Shown: positions 18,212 through 63,089 of the stretch, piece after piece | How the letters are laid out: each line of letters opens with the position of its first letter | Position numbering within the stretch: the stretch's first letter is position 1 | DNA from: Candidatus Wirthbacteria bacterium | Lineage (GTDB): Bacteria > Patescibacteriota > CG2-30-54-11 | DNA length: 64,000 nt | Assembly: GCA_903889905.1 (NCBI GenBank) | Contig: CAISZI010000028.1 | Span: forward strand, 4,156 to 68,155 | Direction of reading: 5' to 3' | Made by a program: the position numbers and the translations under genes | The notes under the pieces: generated by a model | Databases searched by the model: none | What the model was told of the DNA's origin: nothing | What the model saw: only the letters and a program-made list of their open reading frames with translations

Positions 18212-19162
18212 TTAGAAAGGAATTTCGTCATCGTTCTTGGACGAAGTGGAATTGGCATCGGTTTGGGATGAAGCATCGGTGTTCACTTTGCTGCCTGAGA
18301 AGGCGGCATCATGGGCAAGCAGTTCATCCACCGAACCGTAGACGACATTGCTGCTGGCCTGGGTTGGCGCGGGGGCAATGTTTTCCATGGCTGCAGCCGA
18401 GGATAATGGCGCAGCGGTTGGCACAGAAGGAGACTGCGACTGCATTTCATCGCGCACTGTGGAACCAATGATGTAGGCACCAACGGTTTCGGTCTTGTGG
18501 CGTTTGACACCATCTTCACCCTGCCAGGAACGGTTTTGGAGGCGGCCTTCGACAAACACTTTCTGGCTTTTCTTGATATCTTTGGAACTGGATTCGGCCA
18601 AGCCGTTCCAACAAACGATATTGTGAAATTCCGTCGATTCCTGGCGCTGGCCTTCGGAATTGGTCCAGACGCGATTGGTGGCAACGACAAAGGTTGTCAC
18701 GGCGGTACCGCTGGGCAAAAAGCGCAGTTCAGGTTCGCGCGCGACATTACCAATGATCTGGACACGGTTGAGGCATTCGGTGGAGGGCAACTTGATCTCG
18801 CCTTCGGTTGGCACACTGGGAGCGGATCCGGCGCGACCGCCCATCAACACCATGTCATCGGCCACGAGTTCGGTGCGGTAATGTTTGATACCTTCCTGGT
18901 CTTCCCAGCTGCGCGTCTGCAAACGGCCTTCGACAAACACTTTGCTGCCAGCCACGAGGAGTTGATTGCAAATCTCGGCTAACTTGCTCCAGGTGACAAC
19001 GTTGGTATATTCGGGTGATTCCTGCGCACTGTTTGCATCATCGGTCCAGCCACGGTAGGTCAGCACGGTAAAAGTGGTCACCGCTGTGCCACTGGGCATA
19101 TAACGCATTTCGGGATTACGAGGCAGCACACCAATCAGTTGAACACGGTTTAAAGCTTGCAT
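18212..19162 (-). CDS. ssb: Single-stranded DNA-binding protein with two tandem OB folds and an acidic DDEIPF C-terminal tip
   Basis: OB fold 1 is LNRVQLIGVLPRNPEMRYMPSGTAVTTFTV...KVFVEGRLQTRSWEDQEG. OB fold 2 is LNRVQIIGNVAREPELRFLPSGTAVTTFVV...KVFVEGRLQNRSWQGEDG. The C-terminus DDEIPF resembles the E. coli DDDIPF tail. The gene sits in the classic position between rpsF and rpsR. Confidence 0.85.
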   Translation of the reverse strand: MQALNRVQLIGVLPRNPEMRYMPSGTAVTTFTVLTYRGWTDDANSAQESPEYTNVVTWSKLAEICNQLLVAGSKVFVEGRLQTRSWEDQEGIKHYRTELVADDMVLMGGRAGSAPSVPTEGEIKLPSTECLNRVQIIGNVAREPELRFLPSGTAVTTFVVATNRVWTNSEGQRQESTEFHNIVCWNGLAESSSKDIKKSQKVFVEGRLQNRSWQGEDGVKRHKTETVGAYIIGSTVRDEMQSQSPSVPTAAPLSSAAAMENIAPAPTQASSNVVYGSVDELLAHDAAFSGSKVNTDASSQTDANSTSSKNDDEIPF

Positions 19163-20035: not shown

Positions 20036-20110
20036 TGGAGGCGACGAGCGGATTCGAACCGCTGCATGAAGGTTTTGCAGACCTCTCCCTTACCACTTGG
20101 GTACGTCGCC
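20036..20110 (-). tRNA. tRNA-Cys (anticodon GCA) with an encoded CCA 3' end
   Basis: The reverse complement reads GGCGACG-UA-CCCAAGUGGUAAGGG-AG-AGGUC/GAGGU CUGCAAA ACCUU-CAUG-AGCGG UUCGAAU CCGCU-CGUCGCC-U-CCA. It has a 7-bp acceptor stem, a TΨC loop TTCGAAT, a 7-nt anticodon loop CUGCAAA with U33 and A37, and a CCA end. Palindromic hairpins at about 19965-20030, downstream of its 3' end, may be a terminator. Confidence 0.85.
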
Positions 20111-20200: not shown

Positions 20201-21349
<1,149 letters not shown>

Positions 21350-21640
21350 CTAAATCTCCTCATACAAATCCTTCCAATTCGTGTTTGTAGAAATAATCAT
21401 ATCAACTTTCTTTTCTCTTGAACCAGCCTTAATCTGCTTCTCTCTCATAATTGCCATTTCAACATCATCAAAAACCTCAAAATAAACCAAACGACTAACG
21501 TTATATCGGGAAGTAAAACTCGCCACGAGCTTTTCTCTGTGCTCGTAGACTCGACGCTTCAAATCATTGGTAACGCCGGTATTAATAACTGTACGAGCGG
21601 GGTTGGTCAAAAGATAAACATAATATTGACGGTCTTCCAT
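21350..21640 (-). CDS. GIY-YIG nuclease-superfamily small protein (YhbQ/UPF0213-like)
   Basis: MEDRQYYVYLLTNPARTVINTGVTNDLKRRVYEHREK carries the GIY...YIG-type motif (YVYLL...GVTNDLKRRVYEH). Confidence 0.7.
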   Translation of the reverse strand: MEDRQYYVYLLTNPARTVINTGVTNDLKRRVYEHREKLVASFTSRYNVSRLVYFEVFDDVEMAIMREKQIKAGSREKKVDMIISTNTNWKDLYEEI

Positions 21641-21663
21641 TATTGGACTCCAAAATCAAGAAA

Positions 21664-21702
21664 GAGAGATTGCCGCGCCCCGCTGACGGGACTCGCAATG
21701 AC
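21664..21702 (-). repeat. Dispersed short repeat, copy C (reverse orientation)
   Basis: gagagattgccgcgccccgctgacgggactcgcaatgac; the reverse complement is GTCATTGCGAG-TCCCGTCAGCGGGGC-GCGGCAATCTCTC, with an internal hairpin CCCG-tcag-CGGG. Confidence 0.8.
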
Positions 21703-21714
21703 AGACACGAATGC

Positions 21715-23022
21715 TCAAACAAAATCGATCATCTCCTTTTCCACTCCCCCATACAACTCATCAATCTGCTTCTGCACCTCAATCGTCCGCTCCAGTGCCG
21801 TCACCACGCGGCAATAATGCCTGATATCATTGGCACTCAGGCTGCGGCCTTTACGGTCTTTGAGCCATTTGTCGCAGACCTGGTAGCCACCGATCTGGTA
21901 CTGCCAAACCTCGGCCGGTACGCAGTCAAAGTGCTGCGTGGCATTGATCCAAACCTTGCCAGCTTCAAACCGTGGTTTCTCTACTTTCCCGTCGCCGGTT
22001 CCCTCGAACTTGGCAATCGGCACCTCCAACACTGGCGACTTGAGCAAGTGCAAATCCACCAGTTGCTGCCCCAACCCGCCCAGTTTCACAAACAGTTCAT
22101 AATCCCTGGTAAACGGCACCCGCGGGAAATCCCGTTTCAGGAAGTCGGCGTACTTCTCGCGGTAGACATTGGAATACAATACGGCGTAGATGTAGTTAAA
22201 AATTGCTTCTGGCGCCAAAGGTTCCGTCCCTCCGTCATTGCGAGGAGTCTCCGACGTGGCAATCTCTCCGAGCATCTTCTGCAAGGCAACTATCAGCCGT
22301 GGATTAATGTTTGCCGTTTTTTCCGTAATTTCAACATCAAACATTGTCTTTTTCTTGGCGCTTGGATCGGGATACAAATAAAGTGGAAACATGCATGACT
22401 GCGTGGTTCGTTCACCACATTTTGTTTCCATAATTGCATCTGTGCAGAAAAAATGATCCATTTGTTGAGATTTATTACTTCTGGCAGTAATCAACGCAAC
22501 ATTAGCTTGCTGCATATGTGCCATTACTCGTCTAACAGTTCTCCAAACAACTGCATCGTGATAAAAAATATATCTATGATCAAAAGGTCGATACGATATT
22601 GACACAATGTTTTCATCGAGATTGATATTATCTAACTTCGCCAAAATCCGGTGTGCAACATCTATATCCCATCCAGTTTTTATATTAACTTGAAAGAAAG
22701 TATATAAATCATTACCAGAATAAATGCTAACTGAAAAACGTCGCATCCGGTTCACTAACTCCGTCTTGCTCATATCAATAACAAAATCATCATGTGCCGT
22801 CGTTATTCCCACCCCATTCACCGGAAACACATCCGTCACCTTCCAGAACCGCTCATAGTGTGCCAGAAGTTCCGTATTCTGCGGCACCAGCAAATACGAC
22901 TCACTCTGCGGATGAAGTTCCTGCCAGTCGGTGGTGCTCACATCGTGATGGTCGAGGTAGTCGTATTTCTGCTCCCGCAGTCCCCACACATCAGAGTAGA
23001 AGACTTTGGCCTGGTTTGACAT
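21715..23022 (-). CDS. C-terminal target-recognition-domain-like portion of an MmeI-like Type IIG RM enzyme, as a separate ORF. It contains an in-frame copy of the dispersed repeat.
   Basis: The N-terminus MSNQAKVFYSDVWGLREQKYDYLDHHDVSTTDWQELHPQSESYLLVPQ resembles the region following the methyltransferase domain in Type IIG/ISP/PglX-like enzymes. The ORF is separated from the upstream methyltransferase ORF by ~300 nt containing in-frame stops (a TAA at 23107-23109). Repeat copy B at 22234-22269 encodes EIATSETPRND within the ORF. Confidence 0.55.
   Translation of the reverse strand: MSNQAKVFYSDVWGLREQKYDYLDHHDVSTTDWQELHPQSESYLLVPQNTELLAHYERFWKVTDVFPVNGVGITTAHDDFVIDMSKTELVNRMRRFSVSIYSGNDLYTFFQVNIKTGWDIDVAHRILAKLDNINLDENIVSISYRPFDHRYIFYHDAVVWRTVRRVMAHMQQANVALITARSNKSQQMDHFFCTDAIMETKCGERTTQSCMFPLYLYPDPSAKKKTMFDVEITEKTANINPRLIVALQKMLGEIATSETPRNDGGTEPLAPEAIFNYIYAVLYSNVYREKYADFLKRDFPRVPFTRDYELFVKLGGLGQQLVDLHLLKSPVLEVPIAKFEGTGDGKVEKPRFEAGKVWINATQHFDCVPAEVWQYQIGGYQVCDKWLKDRKGRSLSANDIRHYCRVVTALERTIEVQKQIDELYGGVEKEMIDFV
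22234..22269 (+). repeat. Dispersed short repeat, copy B, located inside a CDS and in frame
   Basis: GTCATTGCGAG-GAGTCTCCGAC-GTGGCAATCTCTC, nearly identical to copy A. On the minus strand it translates as G-EIATSETPRND-G inside ORF 21715-23022 with no stop codon. Confidence 0.8.
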
Positions 23023-23320
23023 GGTTTGATTGCCTTGGTAAAATTGAAGCAGAAGTCCTCTGTAATGATATTCGGCGTCGAGCCGTGCTTCGCGCAAGCG
23101 AACTAGTTACAGAGGGCTTACTGTATTCAGATCAAATTTATGCTTGGAATTGTAATAATTTTTCCCATCGGCATAGTTAGATTTAGGCGCGTTTGACACT
23201 CTAAAGATTACCTTGATAAGATACTATCACAAAGATCCATTTTCCGAACTGTCACCGTAAGGTGGCGTGCCTGGGAGACACCAGGAGTAGGAAATGGATC
23301 GTTTTTTATACAGATGACAA

Positions 23321-25165
23321 TCATTTCTTCTCCCCCATCTTCACAAACAACGCGATCGCCACGCCGGCCTGGATGTCGAAGACGTTTTCGTCTTTGGAGC
23401 CGTCCGGGCATTTTTCTTTCTTGAGACTGTTGCCGTGCAGGTTGAGAATGTAGAGCTCGTCAAAACTCGTCATCAAGGACTGGCGCATACCGCGGAAGGT
23501 AGGGTTGTCTAGGTAGCTGTGGTTGGTAATAAAGCCAAGGATGCCTTCCCCGGCTTGGTCAATCTTCCACTGCGCGAAGCGGATGAATTTGACGTAGTCG
23601 TCCTGCAGCCACTTGGGATTGCGTTCGTTGAGTGAATGCCCATCAACCTGAAAATATTCCCGGATTTCCTTGGCAATCCACTCGCCATTGTTGTCGGAAT
23701 GACCGGAATACGGCGGATTGCCCATCACGACCATGATCGGGATTTCGCGCTTCACTTTGCCGGCAAGCTCGGACTCATGCGACAGTGACGTGAGGCCAGG
23801 TAAGGCAGATTGCTCGAGATCTTTCCATTCCAGCGTATTGGTGAGGTAAAGCTGGAACCGTTCATCATCCTTGAGCCGGTAGCCAAGTTCATCAAAGGTA
23901 ATCCCCGCCTTGAGATGCCCCACCGCATACGGCGCCATCATCAGTTCAAAGGCGAAGAAGTGCTTCAGGATGTGGTCATGAATCAAACTCGAAACCCCAC
24001 CGCTTCCATACTTGTTCTTGTATTCCTCTACCGCAAGGCGGATGGCGGCAACCGGAAAAGTAATGGTTCCGGCTGCTGGGTCTAGCACCGTCACAGTGTC
24101 GGAAGCAAACCCGTCAGCGCGGCCAAACCGGGTTTTGAGCAGGTGATGGATGGAACGCGTAATGTATGAAACAACCGGTTCCGGCGTGTAATAAACGCCA
24201 CGTTTTTCCCGTTCTTTGGGGTCGTATTCTGACAAAAACGTTTCGTAGAAATGAATAACCGGGTCGCGGCCTTTGCCTTCCTGATAGAAATTGTTGATGA
24301 TTTTATTGACGTCGCAATTGGCCAGTACTTCGGCGATATCATCGATGATCCATTCCATGTTGGGCGGCAAATCACCCAGTGAAATAAACTTGAACACGTC
24401 GCGCAAAATGCCGATGGTGTGCGGAATAAACTGGTAAGCCAGTGGACGGTTGAATTCCTTGTTTGCCCGGGTGCGCGCGGCAAACAATCCGTAAGTGATC
24501 GTCTGGGCAAACAAATTGGCAAAATCCTGTACCGTGAGTGTTGACAACAAGTGTTGCTTGAAGGCTTCCAAAAATGCTTCCAGAGTCTGCGTGCCCTCAA
24601 TTTTCTCTTCTTTCATTTCCTCGGCAATCACATTGTCGCGCAAAAACCGCGTGCGTTTGGCCAATTCGGTGGCGAGCTGTTTGGCGGTGAAGGTGCGGGG
24701 AATCGAAAAGGAAAAAAACTGGTCCAGTAGCTGACCAAATTCAGTTTCATTTTCCACCGGCGGCACAGCTTTGAGCTGTTGCAGGACAAACGGCCGGCCG
24801 ACCTCGGTTTTGGCAATCAACACGCCATTGCGGTACAGACGGAATTCCAGAAAATTGGTCAAGATCAAATTGGGAAAAGTCTGCCGATAACGCTTGAGTT
24901 GCTCGGATTCGGCAATCTCATCCAAATTCCCAACCGTCGGCGCCTTGGCTTCGATGTAACCGACGATTTTACTTTTGCCGTCCCAAATACGGAAATCGGG
25001 ATTGCCACCTTCGGTCTTGCGTGGCAACGTGATGACATCAAACTGCTTGTTCTGGTTTTGAATCCATAGCTTGAGCAGTTGTTTGAGGTCAGAATAAAAA
25101 CTCTCCTCCCGTGCGTCACCGTGCAGGCTGGTGGTATGAAGGGATTTGAGATAGTCAAAAAGCAT
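23321..25165 (-). CDS. MmeI-like Type IIG restriction-modification enzyme, N-terminal part: PD-ExK nuclease domain plus gamma-class N6-adenine methyltransferase (NPPY)
   Basis: The N-terminal PD-(D/E)xK-like motif is GNPDFRIWDG...IVGYIEAKAP. Methyltransferase motif I is VLDPAAGTITF and motif IV is MVVMGNPPYSGHS. The downstream region LGFITNHSYLDNPTFRGMRQSL...NVFDIQAGVAIALF is typical of Type IIG/ISP gamma-methyltransferases. Confidence 0.7.
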   Translation of the reverse strand: MLFDYLKSLHTTSLHGDAREESFYSDLKQLLKLWIQNQNKQFDVITLPRKTEGGNPDFRIWDGKSKIVGYIEAKAPTVGNLDEIAESEQLKRYRQTFPNLILTNFLEFRLYRNGVLIAKTEVGRPFVLQQLKAVPPVENETEFGQLLDQFFSFSIPRTFTAKQLATELAKRTRFLRDNVIAEEMKEEKIEGTQTLEAFLEAFKQHLLSTLTVQDFANLFAQTITYGLFAARTRANKEFNRPLAYQFIPHTIGILRDVFKFISLGDLPPNMEWIIDDIAEVLANCDVNKIINNFYQEGKGRDPVIHFYETFLSEYDPKEREKRGVYYTPEPVVSYITRSIHHLLKTRFGRADGFASDTVTVLDPAAGTITFPVAAIRLAVEEYKNKYGSGGVSSLIHDHILKHFFAFELMMAPYAVGHLKAGITFDELGYRLKDDERFQLYLTNTLEWKDLEQSALPGLTSLSHESELAGKVKREIPIMVVMGNPPYSGHSDNNGEWIAKEIREYFQVDGHSLNERNPKWLQDDYVKFIRFAQWKIDQAGEGILGFITNHSYLDNPTFRGMRQSLMTSFDELYILNLHGNSLKKEKCPDGSKDENVFDIQAGVAIALFVKMGEKK

Positions 25166-25184
25166 TTAAGACCTTATGAAGAAA

Positions 25185-25221
25185 GAGAGATTGCCGCGGT
25201 CGAGGACTCACTCGCAATGAC
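25185..25221 (-). repeat. Dispersed short repeat, copy D (reverse orientation)
   Basis: gagagattgccgcggtcgaggactcactcgcaatgac; the reverse complement is GTCATTGCGAG-TGAGTCCTCGAC-CGCGGCAATCTCTC. It lies between the RM gene start and the ruvB stop. Confidence 0.8.
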
Positions 25222-25241
25222 AGCCACAACCAATTTCCACT

Positions 25242-26264
25242 TTATATAAACTTCGTCTGCTCTTCCTGTGGCATCTCCAACCCCAGATGCTCCAGCGCCC
25301 GTCGTGTAATTTTGCGTCCACGCGGCGTGCGCTCCAAAAATCCGATTTGCATCAGATAAGGTTCATAAACATCTTCGAGTGTATCGGCTTCCTGGGCCGT
25401 GCTGGCTGCAAGTGTCTCAATCCCAACCGGTCCACCCGCGTATTTCTCAACAATGGCGAGGAGAAGCTTGCGATCAATTTCATCGAGTCCGAGCTCATCT
25501 ACTTGTAAATCAGCGAGCGCGCGTTCGGCAATAGCCAGCGTCACATTGCCGTCATGTTCCACCTGGGCAAAGTCGCGCACACGTTTCAGCAGGCGGTTGG
25601 CGATACGCGCTGTACCGCGGGCACGTTTACCGATTTCAGCAGCGGCTTCAGCCTCTACTTCCACATTCAAAATACGTGCTGATCGCTTCACGATCTGGGC
25701 ACATTCGGCCGGTGAGTAAAAATCCAGATGGTACGTTACGCCAAACCGGTCCCTTAGCGGCGAGCTCAGCAGTGACATGCGTGTCGTGGCACCAATGATC
25801 GTGAATTTGGCGAGGTCAATACGGAAGGTTCGTGCTGCCGGGCCTTTGCCTGTGACAATGTCCAAACGGTAATCTTCCATCGCCGGGTACAAGTATTCTT
25901 CCACCATTTTGTTGAGCCGGTGAATTTCATCGATAAACAGCACGTCGCCTTCATTCAAGTTGGTCAAAATCGCCGCCAGATCGCCGGCACGCTCAATCGC
26001 CGGACCGGTGGTGGTTTTGATCGCCACGCCCATTTCGTTGGCAATAATGTTGGCGAGCGTGGTTTTGCCCAGGCCGGGAGGACCATACAACAAAACATGC
26101 TCGAGCACATCGCTGCGTTTGCGGGCAGCACCCATAAAAATGCGCAGGTTTTTCTTGACCTGCTGCTGGCCAATGTATTCTTCCAGACTGCGTGGCCGAA
26201 GGGTTTGTTCAAAAACCTCTTCCCCACTGTCATCCACATGCGCTTCCACAACCCTGTCCGTCAT
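25242..26264 (-). CDS. ruvB: Holliday junction branch-migration ATPase RuvB
   Basis: The Walker A motif is [22 protein letters not shown], with overall RuvB similarity throughout. Confidence 0.92.
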
Positions 26265-29473: not shown

Positions 29474-29508
29474 GAAAGATTGCCACGTCGAAGACTCCTC
29501 GCAATGAC
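29474..29508 (-). repeat. Dispersed short repeat, copy E (reverse orientation)
   Basis: gaaagattgccacgtcgaagactcctcgcaatgac; the reverse complement is GTCATTGCGAG-GAGTCTTCGAC-GTGGCAATCTTTC. It lies between the tpiA stop and the secG start. Confidence 0.8.
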
Positions 29509-63058: not shown

Positions 63059-63089
63059 TGAAAGATTGCCGCGCATGGCTCGCAATGAC
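63059..63089 (-). repeat. Dispersed short repeat, copy F (reverse orientation, shortest copy)
   Basis: gaaagattgccgcgcatggctcgcaatgac; the reverse complement is GTCATTGCGAG-CCATGC-GCGGCAATCTTTC. It lies between the purN start and the purM stop. Confidence 0.75.

What the first reader, a model, noticed from the sequence alone, without database searches (positions are those of the whole stretch)
21350..25165. MmeI-like Type IIG RM enzyme split into a nuclease+methyltransferase ORF and a target-recognition ORF, next to a GIY-YIG nuclease, forming a small defense islet between tgt and ruvB
The ORF 23321-25165 has a PD-ExK motif (PDF...IEAKAP) and a gamma-class NPPY methyltransferase, and it ends exactly where the specificity region normally begins. 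About 300 nt later, with in-frame stops between, ORF 21715-23022 encodes the rest.

This could be a pseudogene, a phase-variable or frameshift-controlled gene, or an unusual two-polypeptide Type IIG system. The region is bracketed by the dispersed repeats and a stand-alone GIY-YIG gene, which suggests it is the accessory or mobile part of the window.
Basis: partly seen in the sequence, partly recalled or inferred. Interest (0 to 1): 0.55.

Follow-up and report, generated by a model that had tools for sequence, protein, structure and literature searches.

The report
Restriction gene split by small-RNA cassette
A single-chain restriction-modification gene has been cut into a nuclease/methylase half and a DNA-recognition half by a 300-base insert carrying two small structured RNA genes, and relatives elsewhere carry other small defence-type modules at the same spot.

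Summary
ORF1 (23321-25165, minus strand) carries PD-X14-EAK, DPAAGT and NPPY. ORF2 (21715-23022, minus strand) is a Type_ISP_C recognition domain. Joined, they match thousands of single-chain ~1040-aa Type IIG enzymes end to end with no residues missing. The TRD fold matches DrdV/LlaGI/LlaBIII, not MmeI.

The 298-nt gap is an insertion in the variable methylase-TRD linker, not a frameshift, deletion or phase-variable tract. It carries two promoter-equipped small RNA genes antisense to the RM gene:
- Rfam DUF3800-IX (23234-23304, 61 bits).
- "RNA-A" (23048-23135), absent from Rfam and found twice elsewhere beside DUF3800 genes.

It also holds the last 22 codons of a DUF3800 gene, so it is a decayed DUF3800+RNA guest. 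ORF2 additionally carries an in-frame 39-nt copy of a dispersed hairpin repeat.

Stand-alone TRDs starting in this linker are scattered through the family tree. Three cleanly split homologues (L017, L018, L025) carry guests there: HEPN-MNT, DUF3800 with its IX RNA, and DUF1828/PDC-M24.

I rate a working two-chain (RM + S) enzyme as somewhat more likely than a young pseudogene; methylome or expression data would decide.

The parts
23321..25165 (-). ORF1: the RM half (PD-X14-EAK nuclease motif, helical connector, gamma-class N6-adenine methyltransferase), 614 aa. It ends in the methylase-TRD linker.
   Evidence: PADLOC REase_MTase_IIG PDLC03610 at 3.7e-172. PD..EAK at residue 56, DPAAGT at 362, NPPY at 483.
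23023..23320 (.). Guest cassette: a 298-nt insertion in the linker (GC 0.42 against 0.51 for the window). On the protein alignment the inserted DNA runs roughly 23014-23323.
   Evidence: no residues missing compared with 29 single-chain homologues; GC content.
23234..23304 (+). DUF3800-IX small RNA (Rfam RF02968), antisense to the RM gene. It is followed by a U tract up to about 23311, 16 nt short of the ORF1 stop codon.
   Evidence: 61.3 bits against a gathering score of 36.8, E 6.5e-11 over the whole window. Closest to the Saccharibacteria copies L005, L008 and L011.
23193..23222 (+). Sigma-70-like promoter (TTGACA-18-TAAGAT with an extended TG) placed to start transcription just before the DUF3800-IX motif.
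   Evidence: The same TTGACA/-10 arrangement sits in front of the motif in most of the other loci, in several phyla.
23107..23175 (-). Stump of a DUF3800 gene: the last 22 codons plus the stop ('GKNYYNSKHKFDLNTVSPL*'), preceded by in-frame stops.
   Evidence: 59% identity to the C-terminus of the 264-aa DUF3800 protein of L019 (E 8e-4). The stop overlaps the 3' end of RNA-A by 29 nt, exactly as in L019.
23048..23135 (+). 'RNA-A': a second structured small RNA (13-bp closing stem and two internal hairpins, one capped by a GNRA loop). It matches no Rfam family.
   Evidence: -35.4 kcal/mol, z -6.9, against -28.5 on the other strand; homologues in L015 and L019, both convergent with a DUF3800 gene; 98% of cells paired, 3 pairs with compensatory changes. 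No Rfam hit at E<=10 in the window spacer, E<=0.1 in L015 or E<=1 in L019.
23016..23044 (+). Sigma-70-like promoter (TTGACA-17-TAAAAT, 11 of 12 matches) in front of RNA-A. Its -35 box overlaps the ORF2 start codon.
21715..23022 (-). ORF2: the target-recognition (S-like) half, 435 aa. It starts 3-4 residues before the conserved 'KVFYSDVWGLR'.
   Evidence: Type_ISP_C, 1.7e-83; PDLC03610 positions 656-1067; model matches the LlaGI, DrdV and LlaBIII TRDs.
22231..22269 (+). A 39-nt copy of the dispersed hairpin repeat inserted in frame in ORF2. It encodes 'GEIATSETPRNDG' (residues 252-264).
   Evidence: the repeat; absent from 29 of 29 homologues; also present in the independent contig L003; falls at a helix end and a low-confidence loop.
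21350..21640 (-). Stand-alone 96-aa GIY-YIG gene (GC 0.38), flanked by inverted copies of the hairpin repeat.
21312..21350 (+). Hairpin-repeat copy between the GIY-YIG stop codon and the tgt start.
21655..21705 (-). Hairpin-repeat copy between the ORF2 stop codon and the GIY-YIG start.
25185..25225 (-). Hairpin-repeat copy between the ruvB stop codon and the ORF1 start.

Best explanation
Shown. The locus is one gene of a very common single-chain Type IIG family: PD-(D/E)xK nuclease, gamma N6-adenine methyltransferase and a Type-ISP/DrdV-type recognition domain, about 1040 aa in total. It has been split exactly in its short, variable methylase-TRD linker by a guest cassette.

Shown. The guest is the decayed remains of DUF3800+RNA modules. 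Two small RNA genes survive, each with its own sigma-70-like promoter and each transcribed antisense to the RM gene. One is DUF3800-IX; the other is an uncatalogued DUF3800-associated RNA I call 'RNA-A'. The last 22 codons of one DUF3800 gene also survive. The insert supplies the stop codon of ORF1 and the ATG of ORF2.

Inferred, about 55%. The two halves still work together as a non-covalent RM subunit plus S subunit, in the way Type I HsdM/HsdS or Type IIB BcgI/BsaXI enzymes assemble. ORF2 would be translated from read-through of the ORF1 transcript. The antisense RNAs and their hairpin/U-tract terminator would probably lower the amount of TRD made.

Inferred. The linker is a recurrent docking place for small toxin-antitoxin-like or defence-candidate modules, analogous to PrrC and other guests inside Type I hsd operons.

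Inferred. In this window the DUF3800 protein genes (RNase-H-fold, presumed effectors) have been lost while their RNAs were kept, as an antidote or regulator typically outlives a toxin.
For: The two ORFs are one gene.
The best matches are 1030-1090 aa, up to 63% identical and cover 100% of the query.
- One PADLOC Type IIG profile spans both ORFs.
- The closest solved structures are DrdV, LlaGI and LlaBIII.

Clean insertion. The junction alignment shows that no residue is lost.

Guest content.
- Rfam DUF3800-IX at 61.3 bits.
- Promoters lie directly upstream of both RNAs, and most IX copies elsewhere have the same promoter layout.
- RNA-A recurs next to DUF3800 genes in L015 and L019, with compensatory changes in one hairpin.
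- The DUF3800 stump has its stop codon in the same register relative to RNA-A as in L019.
- In at least eight loci the IX RNA converges on, and lies beside, the 3' end of a DUF3800 gene.

Recurrence of the split.
- 18 of 111 near-complete TRD representatives are stand-alone proteins that begin in this linker. They are scattered among full-length forms in an NJ tree, and ORF2 itself groups with full-length proteins.
- L017: RM half | HEPN+MNT | TRD.
- L018: RM half | DUF3800 + antisense DUF3800-IX RNA | TRD.
- L025: RM half | unknown gene + DUF1828 (PDC-M24B) | TRD.
- L016: the tail of an MNT gene overlaps the TRD start.
- The RM halves of L017, L018 and L025 keep PD..ExK and NPPY.

Intact halves despite an old split.
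- At least two DUF3800 ORFs have been deleted from the guest, and a 39-nt repeat has entered ORF2. Even so, neither half has a frameshift or stop codon, and all catalytic motifs are kept.
- The repeat is in frame and lies in a predicted loop.
Against: - ORF2 has only a weak AAGG about 11-14 nt upstream of its ATG, and no minus-strand promoter was predicted in the spacer.
- Two strong-looking convergent promoters and the IX hairpin/U tract lie between ORF1 and ORF2. They could block read-through, so the TRD may not be made.
- The concatenated protein departs from 20 of 319 family-invariant positions. The next most divergent intact homologues depart from 6-13. This is mild evidence of relaxed constraint.
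- Decayed relatives exist: L020 is multiply frameshifted, and the L024 methylase fragment lacks NPPY.
- The recurrence at the linker could reflect insertion-site preference rather than selection for function.
- No close relative with an empty site was found (the best homologue is 63% identical).
- The spacer is seen in only one assembly.
- The roles proposed for the DUF3800 proteins and RNAs are inference. Their function is unknown in the literature (PMC5737381).
Confidence: 0.6

Rival explanations
1. Young pseudogene. The DUF3800/RNA cassette landed in the gene and killed it. The halves look intact only because too little time has passed, and the in-frame repeat and the decayed guest are further signs of a locus in decline.
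For: - ORF2 has a weak ribosome-binding site and no predicted promoter.
- A terminator-like hairpin and two antisense promoters lie between the halves.
- The protein departs from 20 of 319 invariant sites, against 6-13 in comparably divergent intact homologues.
- A repeat has inserted in the TRD.
- Decayed relatives L020 and L024 exist.
- The guest itself has lost its protein genes.
Against: - There are 1049 codons without a single stop or frameshift, although enough time has passed for at least two large deletions in the guest and one repeat insertion.
- The repeat is in frame and lies in a loop.
- All catalytic motifs are kept.
- Independent lineages keep intact halves around guests at the same linker, with operon-like overlaps of stop and start codons.
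Confidence: 0.33
2. Regulatory guest. The antisense small RNAs are kept because they control the split enzyme or a layered defence. They might set the RM:S ratio through antisense pairing with the inter-ORF mRNA, through RNase III cleavage or through transcriptional interference. Alternatively they might act as an antidote against incoming DUF3800 elements.
For: - Both RNAs keep near-consensus promoters and intact structures while the adjacent DUF3800 genes are gone.
- The same antisense placement of the IX RNA between the halves is seen in L018.
- Intact IX RNAs without an intact DUF3800 gene occur elsewhere: L004, L010, L011, L013.
Against: There are no expression data. The function of DUF3800 RNAs is unknown (PMC5737381). 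The arrangement is equally what passive decay of a toxin gene beside a small, hard-to-hit RNA would leave.
Confidence: 0.12
3. Assembly artefact or chimera. The real gene is uninterrupted, and the 298 nt was joined in by the assembler.
For: The spacer is not covered by the three independent ENA contigs recovered. This population assembles in fragments around the repeats.
Against: - Both flanks are the two halves of the same gene, in order and in the same orientation.
- The insert holds coherent biological units that occur in the same architecture in L018 and L019.
- The repeat inside ORF2 is reproduced in the independent contig L003.
Confidence: 0.03
4. Programmed recoding, splicing or phase variation that restores a single chain.
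For: None beyond the proximity of the two ORFs.
Against: - No tandem or simple repeats.
- No intron or ribozyme family in Rfam at E<=10 on either strand of the spacer.
- The structured RNAs are on the opposite strand.
- The ORFs are 301 nt out of register, with several stops between them.
Confidence: 0.02

Closest known systems
DrdV (PDB 7LO5/7LVV), a single-chain Type IIL/IIG restriction-modification enzyme
   Same: Same domain order and size (N-terminal nuclease, gamma methyltransferase, C-terminal TRD, about 1030 aa). It is the best solved-structure sequence match to a full-length homologue (3.8e-48), and the ORF2 model matches its TRD (E about 3e-13).
   Different: DrdV is one polypeptide. 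Here the chain is cut at the methylase-TRD linker, with a guest between the halves. Identity to the ORF2 model is only about 18% in the structural alignment.
Type ISP enzymes LlaGI and LlaBIII (PDB 5FFJ, 4XQK)
   Same: Methyltransferase and Type_ISP_C TRD are homologous. NCBI names several full-length homologues 'type ISP restriction/modification enzyme'.
   Different: There is no helicase-like ATPase module. The proteins are about 1040 aa rather than about 1570 aa, and the LlaBIII match covers only its residues 844-1521. The helicase is a defining feature of the family.
MmeI (PDB 5HR4)
   Same: General Type IIL logic: nuclease, methylase and TRD in one chain. This is described in PMC2582602 and PMC2731913.
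   Different: No MmeI-specific Pfam domain is found in ORF1 or ORF2. The fold match to MmeI is not significant (E about 5).
Type IIB two-subunit enzymes BcgI and BsaXI (RM subunit plus separate S subunit)
   Same: They are a precedent for a nuclease-methylase polypeptide that works with a separate specificity polypeptide (PMC2731913; (RM)2S for BsaXI, PMC11997821 abstract).
   Different: Their S subunit is Type-I-like, has two TRDs and reads a bipartite site. Here the S-like half is a single Type_ISP_C domain that is normally fused.
EcoprrI-PrrC and other guest genes embedded in Type I hsd operons
   Same: A small TA-like or abortive-infection module nested inside an RM locus. HEPN-family guests in R-M operons are documented in PMC3710099.
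   Different: Those guests sit between separate genes of a multi-subunit system. Here the guest splits what is normally one open reading frame, and in this window the guest consists of RNA genes only.
DUF3800-associated RNA motifs (Weinberg et al. 2017, PMC5737381; Rfam RF02968)
   Same: The 23234-23304 element is a full-length, high-scoring DUF3800-IX RNA with the usual promoter and U tract.
   Different: No DUF3800 gene lies beside it, and it sits inside an RM gene. RNA-A has the same genomic habit but matches no Rfam family.
Type I toxin-antitoxin pairs with convergent, 3'-overlapping transcripts (for example txpA/RatA and bsrG/SR4 of Bacillus subtilis), and the type III pair ToxIN. These are cited from my own knowledge.
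   Same: A small RNA converges on, and overlaps, the 3' end of a gene for a presumed nuclease; the overlap for RNA-A is 29 nt. Tandem RNA copies occur in L012. The RNA survives after the protein gene decays.
   Different: No toxicity or antidote activity has been shown for DUF3800 or its RNAs. This is an analogy only.

Membership tests
Type IIG/IIL single-chain RM enzymes (PADLOC REase_MTase_IIG PDLC03610; DrdV-like) | N-terminal PD-(D/E)xK nuclease motif | tested here: met
   P56-D57-X14-E72-A73-K74. The block NPDFR.WDG...GY.EAK.P is nearly invariant in homologues.
Type IIG/IIL single-chain RM enzymes (PADLOC REase_MTase_IIG PDLC03610; DrdV-like) | Gamma-class N6-adenine methyltransferase (motif I, and motif IV NPPY) | tested here: met
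   Pfam N6_Mtase and Eco57I; DPAAGT at 362 and NPPY at 483.
Type IIG/IIL single-chain RM enzymes (PADLOC REase_MTase_IIG PDLC03610; DrdV-like) | C-terminal target-recognition domain of the same family | tested here: met
   Type_ISP_C at 1.7e-83; PDLC03610 positions 656-1067; Foldseek matches to the DrdV, LlaGI and LlaBIII TRDs.
Type IIG/IIL single-chain RM enzymes (PADLOC REase_MTase_IIG PDLC03610; DrdV-like) | All three activities in one polypeptide | tested here: not met
   Two ORFs in different frames, separated by 298 nt.
Type IIG/IIL single-chain RM enzymes (PADLOC REase_MTase_IIG PDLC03610; DrdV-like) | Sequence-specific m6A methylation and cleavage at a fixed distance from the site | not testable with these tools
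   Needs methylome data or enzyme assays.
Type ISP (LlaGI/LlaBIII) | Helicase-like (SF2) ATPase translocase between the nuclease and the methylase | tested here: not met
   No helicase domain in Pfam. The total is 1049 aa. The match to LlaBIII covers only its residues 844-1521.
MmeI family proper | MmeI-type domains (Pfam MmeI_N, MmeI_hel, MmeI_Mtase, MmeI_TRD, MmeI_C) and the MmeI TRD fold | tested here: not met
   None of these is reported for ORF1 or ORF2 at E<=0.01. MmeI 5HR4 scores E about 5 in Foldseek.
Type IIB two-subunit RM+S enzymes (BcgI-like) | Separate Type-I-like S subunit with two TRDs | tested here: not met
   ORF2 is a single Type_ISP_C domain. No other Pfam family was reported for it at E<=0.01.
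DUF3800-IX RNA (Rfam RF02968) | Covariance-model score above the gathering threshold, over the full length of the model | tested here: met
   61.3 bits against 36.8, model positions 1-67 of 67.
DUF3800-IX RNA (Rfam RF02968) | Adjacent DUF3800 (PF12686) gene | tested here: not met
   tblastn with 7 IX-type DUF3800 proteins, and with three further DUF3800 proteins (L015, L018, L019), finds no gene in the 64-kb window. Only a 22-codon stump of the RNA-A-type gene is found.
Toxin-antitoxin module (type I or type III-like) for DUF3800 plus RNA | Toxicity of the protein and neutralisation by the RNA | not testable with these tools
   Only the gene arrangement and the decay pattern are available.

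The most novel reading that the evidence does not exclude
The methylase-TRD linker of this Type IIG family is a dedicated 'guest slot'. Splitting the enzyme into RM and S chains lets small second-line modules (HEPN-MNT, DUF1828/PDC-M24, DUF3800 plus RNA) ride inside the RM operon and be held in check by it, in the style of PrrC. The DUF3800-associated RNAs, whose role has been open since 2017, would be the antidote or regulator half of such modules. In this window an RNA-only remnant would be retained because it tunes the split enzyme through antisense action, or immunises the cell against DUF3800 elements.
Probability: 0.12. Interest if true: 0.8.

Novelty: new variant of a known kind. Interest (0 to 1): 0.62.

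Why it matters
- It turns an apparent broken gene into a recurring pattern. A common single-chain restriction enzyme is repeatedly split at one linker, and small toxin-antitoxin-like or defence-candidate modules sit in the gap. If the halves still work, this is natural evidence that Type IIG enzymes tolerate separation of the recognition domain. That bears on engineering new specificities, and it extends the idea of guests inside RM operons from Type I to Type IIG systems.
- It gives the orphan DUF3800 RNA motifs a concrete, testable context: convergent 3' overlap with the DUF3800 gene, their own promoters, survival after the protein gene is lost, and nesting in RM genes.
- It adds a candidate twelfth DUF3800-associated RNA, RNA-A.

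Tried and rejected
- Phase variation: no tandem or simple repeats in 21300-25300.
- Intron or ribozyme in the spacer: Rfam at E<=10 on both strands returns only DUF3800-IX.
- Deletion at the junction: rejected by the alignment.
- DUF3800 gene elsewhere in the window: none found.
- Terminal inverted repeats or target-site duplication around the insert: only 6-10-nt matches at chance level, so the insertion mechanism remains unknown.
- Homology of the rest of the spacer to the Saccharibacteria IX loci: none beyond the promoter, RNA and terminator.
- Exact-protein look-ups of ORF1 and ORF2 for other assemblies: not on record. The ENA contigs L001-L003 cover ruvCAB, GIY-YIG and the ORF2 C-terminus, but not the spacer.
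- Supplement of Weinberg 2017: not held in the library.
- NCBIfam: no model matches.
- RNA-A in viral contigs: none. The RNA-A covariance model finds only the three known copies.
- Organism: RuvB gives only a loose placement. The best hits (71-74% identity) are unnamed; the first named hits, at about 65%, are Patescibacteria, with Firmicutes at the same identity level.
- dN/dS was not attempted, because the nearest homologue is 63% identical and synonymous sites would be saturated.

Full report
**1. Observation**

- tgt, 20201-21343. Its first 18 codons are really a repeat copy, and the likely true ATG is at 21289.
- A 96-aa GIY-YIG gene, 21350-21640.
- ORF2, 21715-23022 from the ATG.
- ORF1, 23321-25165.
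- ruvB, 25242-26264.

Pfam finds N6_Mtase and Eco57I in ORF1, Type_ISP_C (1.7e-83) in ORF2 and GIY-YIG in the small ORF. ORF1 carries P56-D57-X14-E72-A-K74, DPAAGT at 362 and NPPY at 483. The spacer is 298 nt, contains stops, and the two ORFs are 301 nt out of register.

**2. One gene in two pieces**

The listed best hits are nearly all 1030-1090 aa, up to 63% identical, and cover 100% of the query. A single PADLOC Type IIG profile (PDLC03610, 1096 positions) covers ORF1 and ORF2 in order.

The junction alignment reads as follows:
- Window: '...GVAIALFVKMGEKK*' then 'MSNQAKVFYSDVWGLRE'.
- Homologues: '...GVAIALFIKRKGEKKGCKVYHSEIWGLRE'.

No residues are missing. The gap is therefore extra DNA inserted in a short linker of variable length.

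A full-length homologue matches DrdV (7LO5), LlaGI and LlaBIII among solved structures. An AlphaFold model of ORF2 (pLDDT 71.8) matches the TRDs of LlaGI, DrdV and LlaBIII at E about 1e-13. It matches MmeI only at E about 5. There is no helicase module. The enzyme is thus a DrdV-like Type IIG/IIL enzyme with a Type-ISP-type TRD. It is not a Type ISP enzyme and not a member of the MmeI family proper.

**3. What fills the gap**

Rfam places a full-length DUF3800-IX RNA (RF02968, 61.3 bits against a gathering score of 36.8) at 23234-23304 on the plus strand, antisense to the RM gene. A TTGACA-18-TAAGAT promoter lies at 23193-23222, immediately upstream. The motif's closing stem is followed by a U tract that ends about 10 nt from the ORF1 stop codon.

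A second promoter-like site (TTGACA-17-TAAAAT, 11 of 12 matches) lies at 23016-23044, and its -35 box overlaps the ORF2 ATG. It precedes a very stable hairpin-junction element at 23048-23135. That element folds at -35.4 kcal/mol (z -6.9) on the plus strand and at -28.5 kcal/mol on the minus strand. I call it RNA-A. It matches no Rfam family at E<=10.

A metagenome scan with its core found L015, an 83-nt match at 89% identity in an unrelated context. BLAST then found a third copy in L019. In both loci RNA-A converges on the 3' end of a DUF3800 gene (Pfam; the two proteins are 91% identical). Across the three copies the structure is 98% paired. Three of the four pairs of the GNRA-capped hairpin show compensatory changes, but with only three sequences this is modest support.

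The window keeps the last 22 codons and the stop of an L019-type DUF3800 gene on the minus strand, at 23175-23107:
- Window: 'GKNYYNSKHKFDLNTVSPL*'.
- L019: 'GGNYYNRKNPFDVNKISPL*'.

The match has E 8e-4, and the stop overlaps RNA-A by the same 29 nt as in L019. No other DUF3800 coding sequence exists in the 64-kb window. The spacer is therefore the decayed remnant of DUF3800+RNA modules in which the RNAs survived and the protein genes did not.

**4. The normal habitat of these RNAs**

A pattern scan of one genome per species found 10 true DUF3800-IX loci. They come from Saccharibacteria, Acidobacteria (Pyrinomonadaceae, Acidoferrales), KSB1, Phycisphaerae and Hyphomonadaceae. Three more matches to the core pattern were found in viral contigs.
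- In at least eight loci (L005, L006, L007, L008, L012, L014 and the viral contigs L021 and L022) the RNA converges on the stop codon of a DUF3800 gene of about 208 aa. In the six genomic loci the gap or overlap is 0-3 nt.
- A TTGACA/-10 promoter sits just upstream of most copies.
- L012 has three tandem copies.
- Intact RNAs beside missing or broken DUF3800 genes also occur: L004, L010, L011, L013 and L018.
- The window's copy is most like the Saccharibacteria ones.
- PADLOC labels the IX-type DUF3800 proteins as defence candidate PDC-M04A, and the L019 protein as the retron type VII DUF3800 model.

The literature gives no function for these RNAs (PMC5737381). DUF3800 is described as an RNase-H-like fold (PMC7736814, PMC10910872).

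**5. The split is recurrent, and it is occupied**

A full HMMER scan of 1.84 billion representatives with ORF2 gave 8156 hits. Of 111 nearly complete TRDs among the top hits, 18 are stand-alone proteins that begin in the same linker, most of them with a Met. In an NJ tree they are scattered among 93 full-length forms. ORF2 itself sits next to the full-length protein P0037. This points to many independent splits.

Gene contexts of the stand-alone TRDs I could look up:

| Locus | Layout |
|---|---|
| L017 | RM half (617 aa) / HEPN + MNT / TRD, with overlapping stop and start codons |
| L018 | RM half (610 aa) / DUF3800 gene / DUF3800-IX RNA on the opposite strand with its promoter / TRD. This is the window's layout with the protein gene still present, although frameshifted at a poly-A run |
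| L025 | RM half (613 aa) / unknown gene + DUF1828 (PDC-M24B) / TRD |
| L016 | The tail of an MNT-like gene overlaps the TRD start; AbiE genes lie downstream |
| L019 | Unknown 183-aa gene / TRD / 192-aa gene / DUF3800 / RNA-A |
| L020 | A multiply frameshifted copy |
| L024 | TA-like DUF433/DUF5615 genes lie before the TRD, but the methylase fragment lacks NPPY |

The RM halves of L017, L018 and L025 keep PD..ExK and NPPY, and they end within the same 6-10-residue linker.

**6. Other damage, and the neighbourhood**

ORF2 carries a 39-nt in-frame insertion (22231-22269) that encodes GEIATSETPRNDG. It is absent from 29 of 29 homologues and present in an independent contig. In the model it lies at a helix end and a low-confidence loop.

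The insertion is one copy of a hairpin repeat family with six copies in the window against 0 expected. Inverted copies flank the low-GC GIY-YIG gene (GC 0.38). Another copy sits between ruvB and ORF1. So the tgt-ruvB interval is indeed the accessory part of the window.

**7. Functional or dead?**

For a working two-chain enzyme:
- There are 1049 codons with no stop or frameshift, even though the guest has had time to lose at least two ORFs and a repeat has entered the TRD.
- All catalytic motifs are present.
- The repeat is in frame and in a loop.
- Independent lineages keep intact halves around guests.
- There is precedent for a separate S polypeptide in BcgI and BsaXI and in Type I enzymes (PMC2731913, PMC11997821).

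Against:
- ORF2 has a weak ribosome-binding site and no predicted promoter.
- A terminator-like hairpin and two convergent promoters lie between the halves.
- The protein departs from 20 of 319 invariant sites, against 6-13 for the most divergent intact homologues.
- Decayed relatives exist.

I put a working split enzyme at roughly 55% and a young pseudogene at roughly 33%. The description of the anatomy itself I hold at about 90%.

**8. Comparison and novelty**

The enzyme family, the DUF3800-IX motif and the idea of guests inside RM operons (PrrC, HEPN; PMC3710099) are all known. In the literature I searched I found no description of the following:
- A normally fused Type IIG gene repeatedly split at its methylase-TRD linker with TA-like or defence-candidate guests inside.
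- A DUF3800/RNA module in that position.
- RNA-A.

I therefore rate this a new variant of a known kind. It is of moderate to good interest, mainly because it gives the unexplained DUF3800 RNAs a testable context.

Noticed in passing
window 23048-23135 (+); L015 3744-3829 (-); L019 3328-3413 (-): 'RNA-A' is a candidate new DUF3800-associated structured RNA (13-bp stem plus two hairpins, one GNRA-capped). It has no Rfam match, and its 3' end overlaps the stop region of a DUF3800 gene by 29 nt. Only three copies were found, so covariation support is thin.
   Followed up: partly
window 21317-21346 (+), 21667-21700 (-), 22236-22265 (+), 25188-25219 (-), 29477-29506 (-), 63063-63087 (-): A dispersed hairpin repeat family (CATTGCGAG...GGCAATCT, about 40-50 nt) has six copies in the window, four of them within the 4-kb tgt-ruvB interval. 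Inverted copies flank the low-GC 96-aa GIY-YIG gene, making a possible 394-bp mobile unit. One copy is translated in frame inside ORF2.
   Followed up: partly
L012 1522-1588 and 4825-5067 (KSB1 MAG JAKEEU010000047.1): Three tandem DUF3800-IX copies lie next to a DUF3800 gene. A DUF3800-VIII RNA lies 3.3 kb away, and a 946-aa ORF between them has a TIR-like N-terminus (judged by eye). The RNA array is reminiscent of antitoxin RNA repeats.
   Followed up: no
L021 and L022 (IMG/VR contigs IMGVR_UViG_3300045988_146007 and _143860): Both contigs carry a match to the DUF3800-IX core pattern next to a convergent DUF3800 gene, so these modules are also found on predicted viral contigs. These matches were not rescored with Rfam.
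   Followed up: partly
L010, L013, L015, L018: DUF3800 genes beside intact RNAs are often truncated, fragmented or frameshifted. L015 lacks about 185 nt that L019 has, and L018 is frameshifted at a poly-A run. The RNA seems to outlive the protein gene.
   Followed up: partly
P0043: This 1285-aa homologue of the RM enzyme carries a Y1_Tnp (IS200-type transposase, PF01797) domain hit. It may be another insertion read through as a fusion.
   Followed up: no
window 20201-21343 (-): The longest tgt ORF starts at a TTG inside a repeat copy ('[11 protein letters not shown]...'). The real start is probably the ATG at 21289 ('MSFEILK').
   Followed up: partly
window 18212-19162 (-): The SSB protein is 316 aa and appears to hold two OB-fold repeats in tandem, followed by a long low-complexity tail. 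This was judged by eye from the translation.
   Followed up: no
window 20039-20110 (-): A tRNA gene (65 bits) lies immediately downstream of tgt, at the edge of the accessory interval.
   Followed up: no
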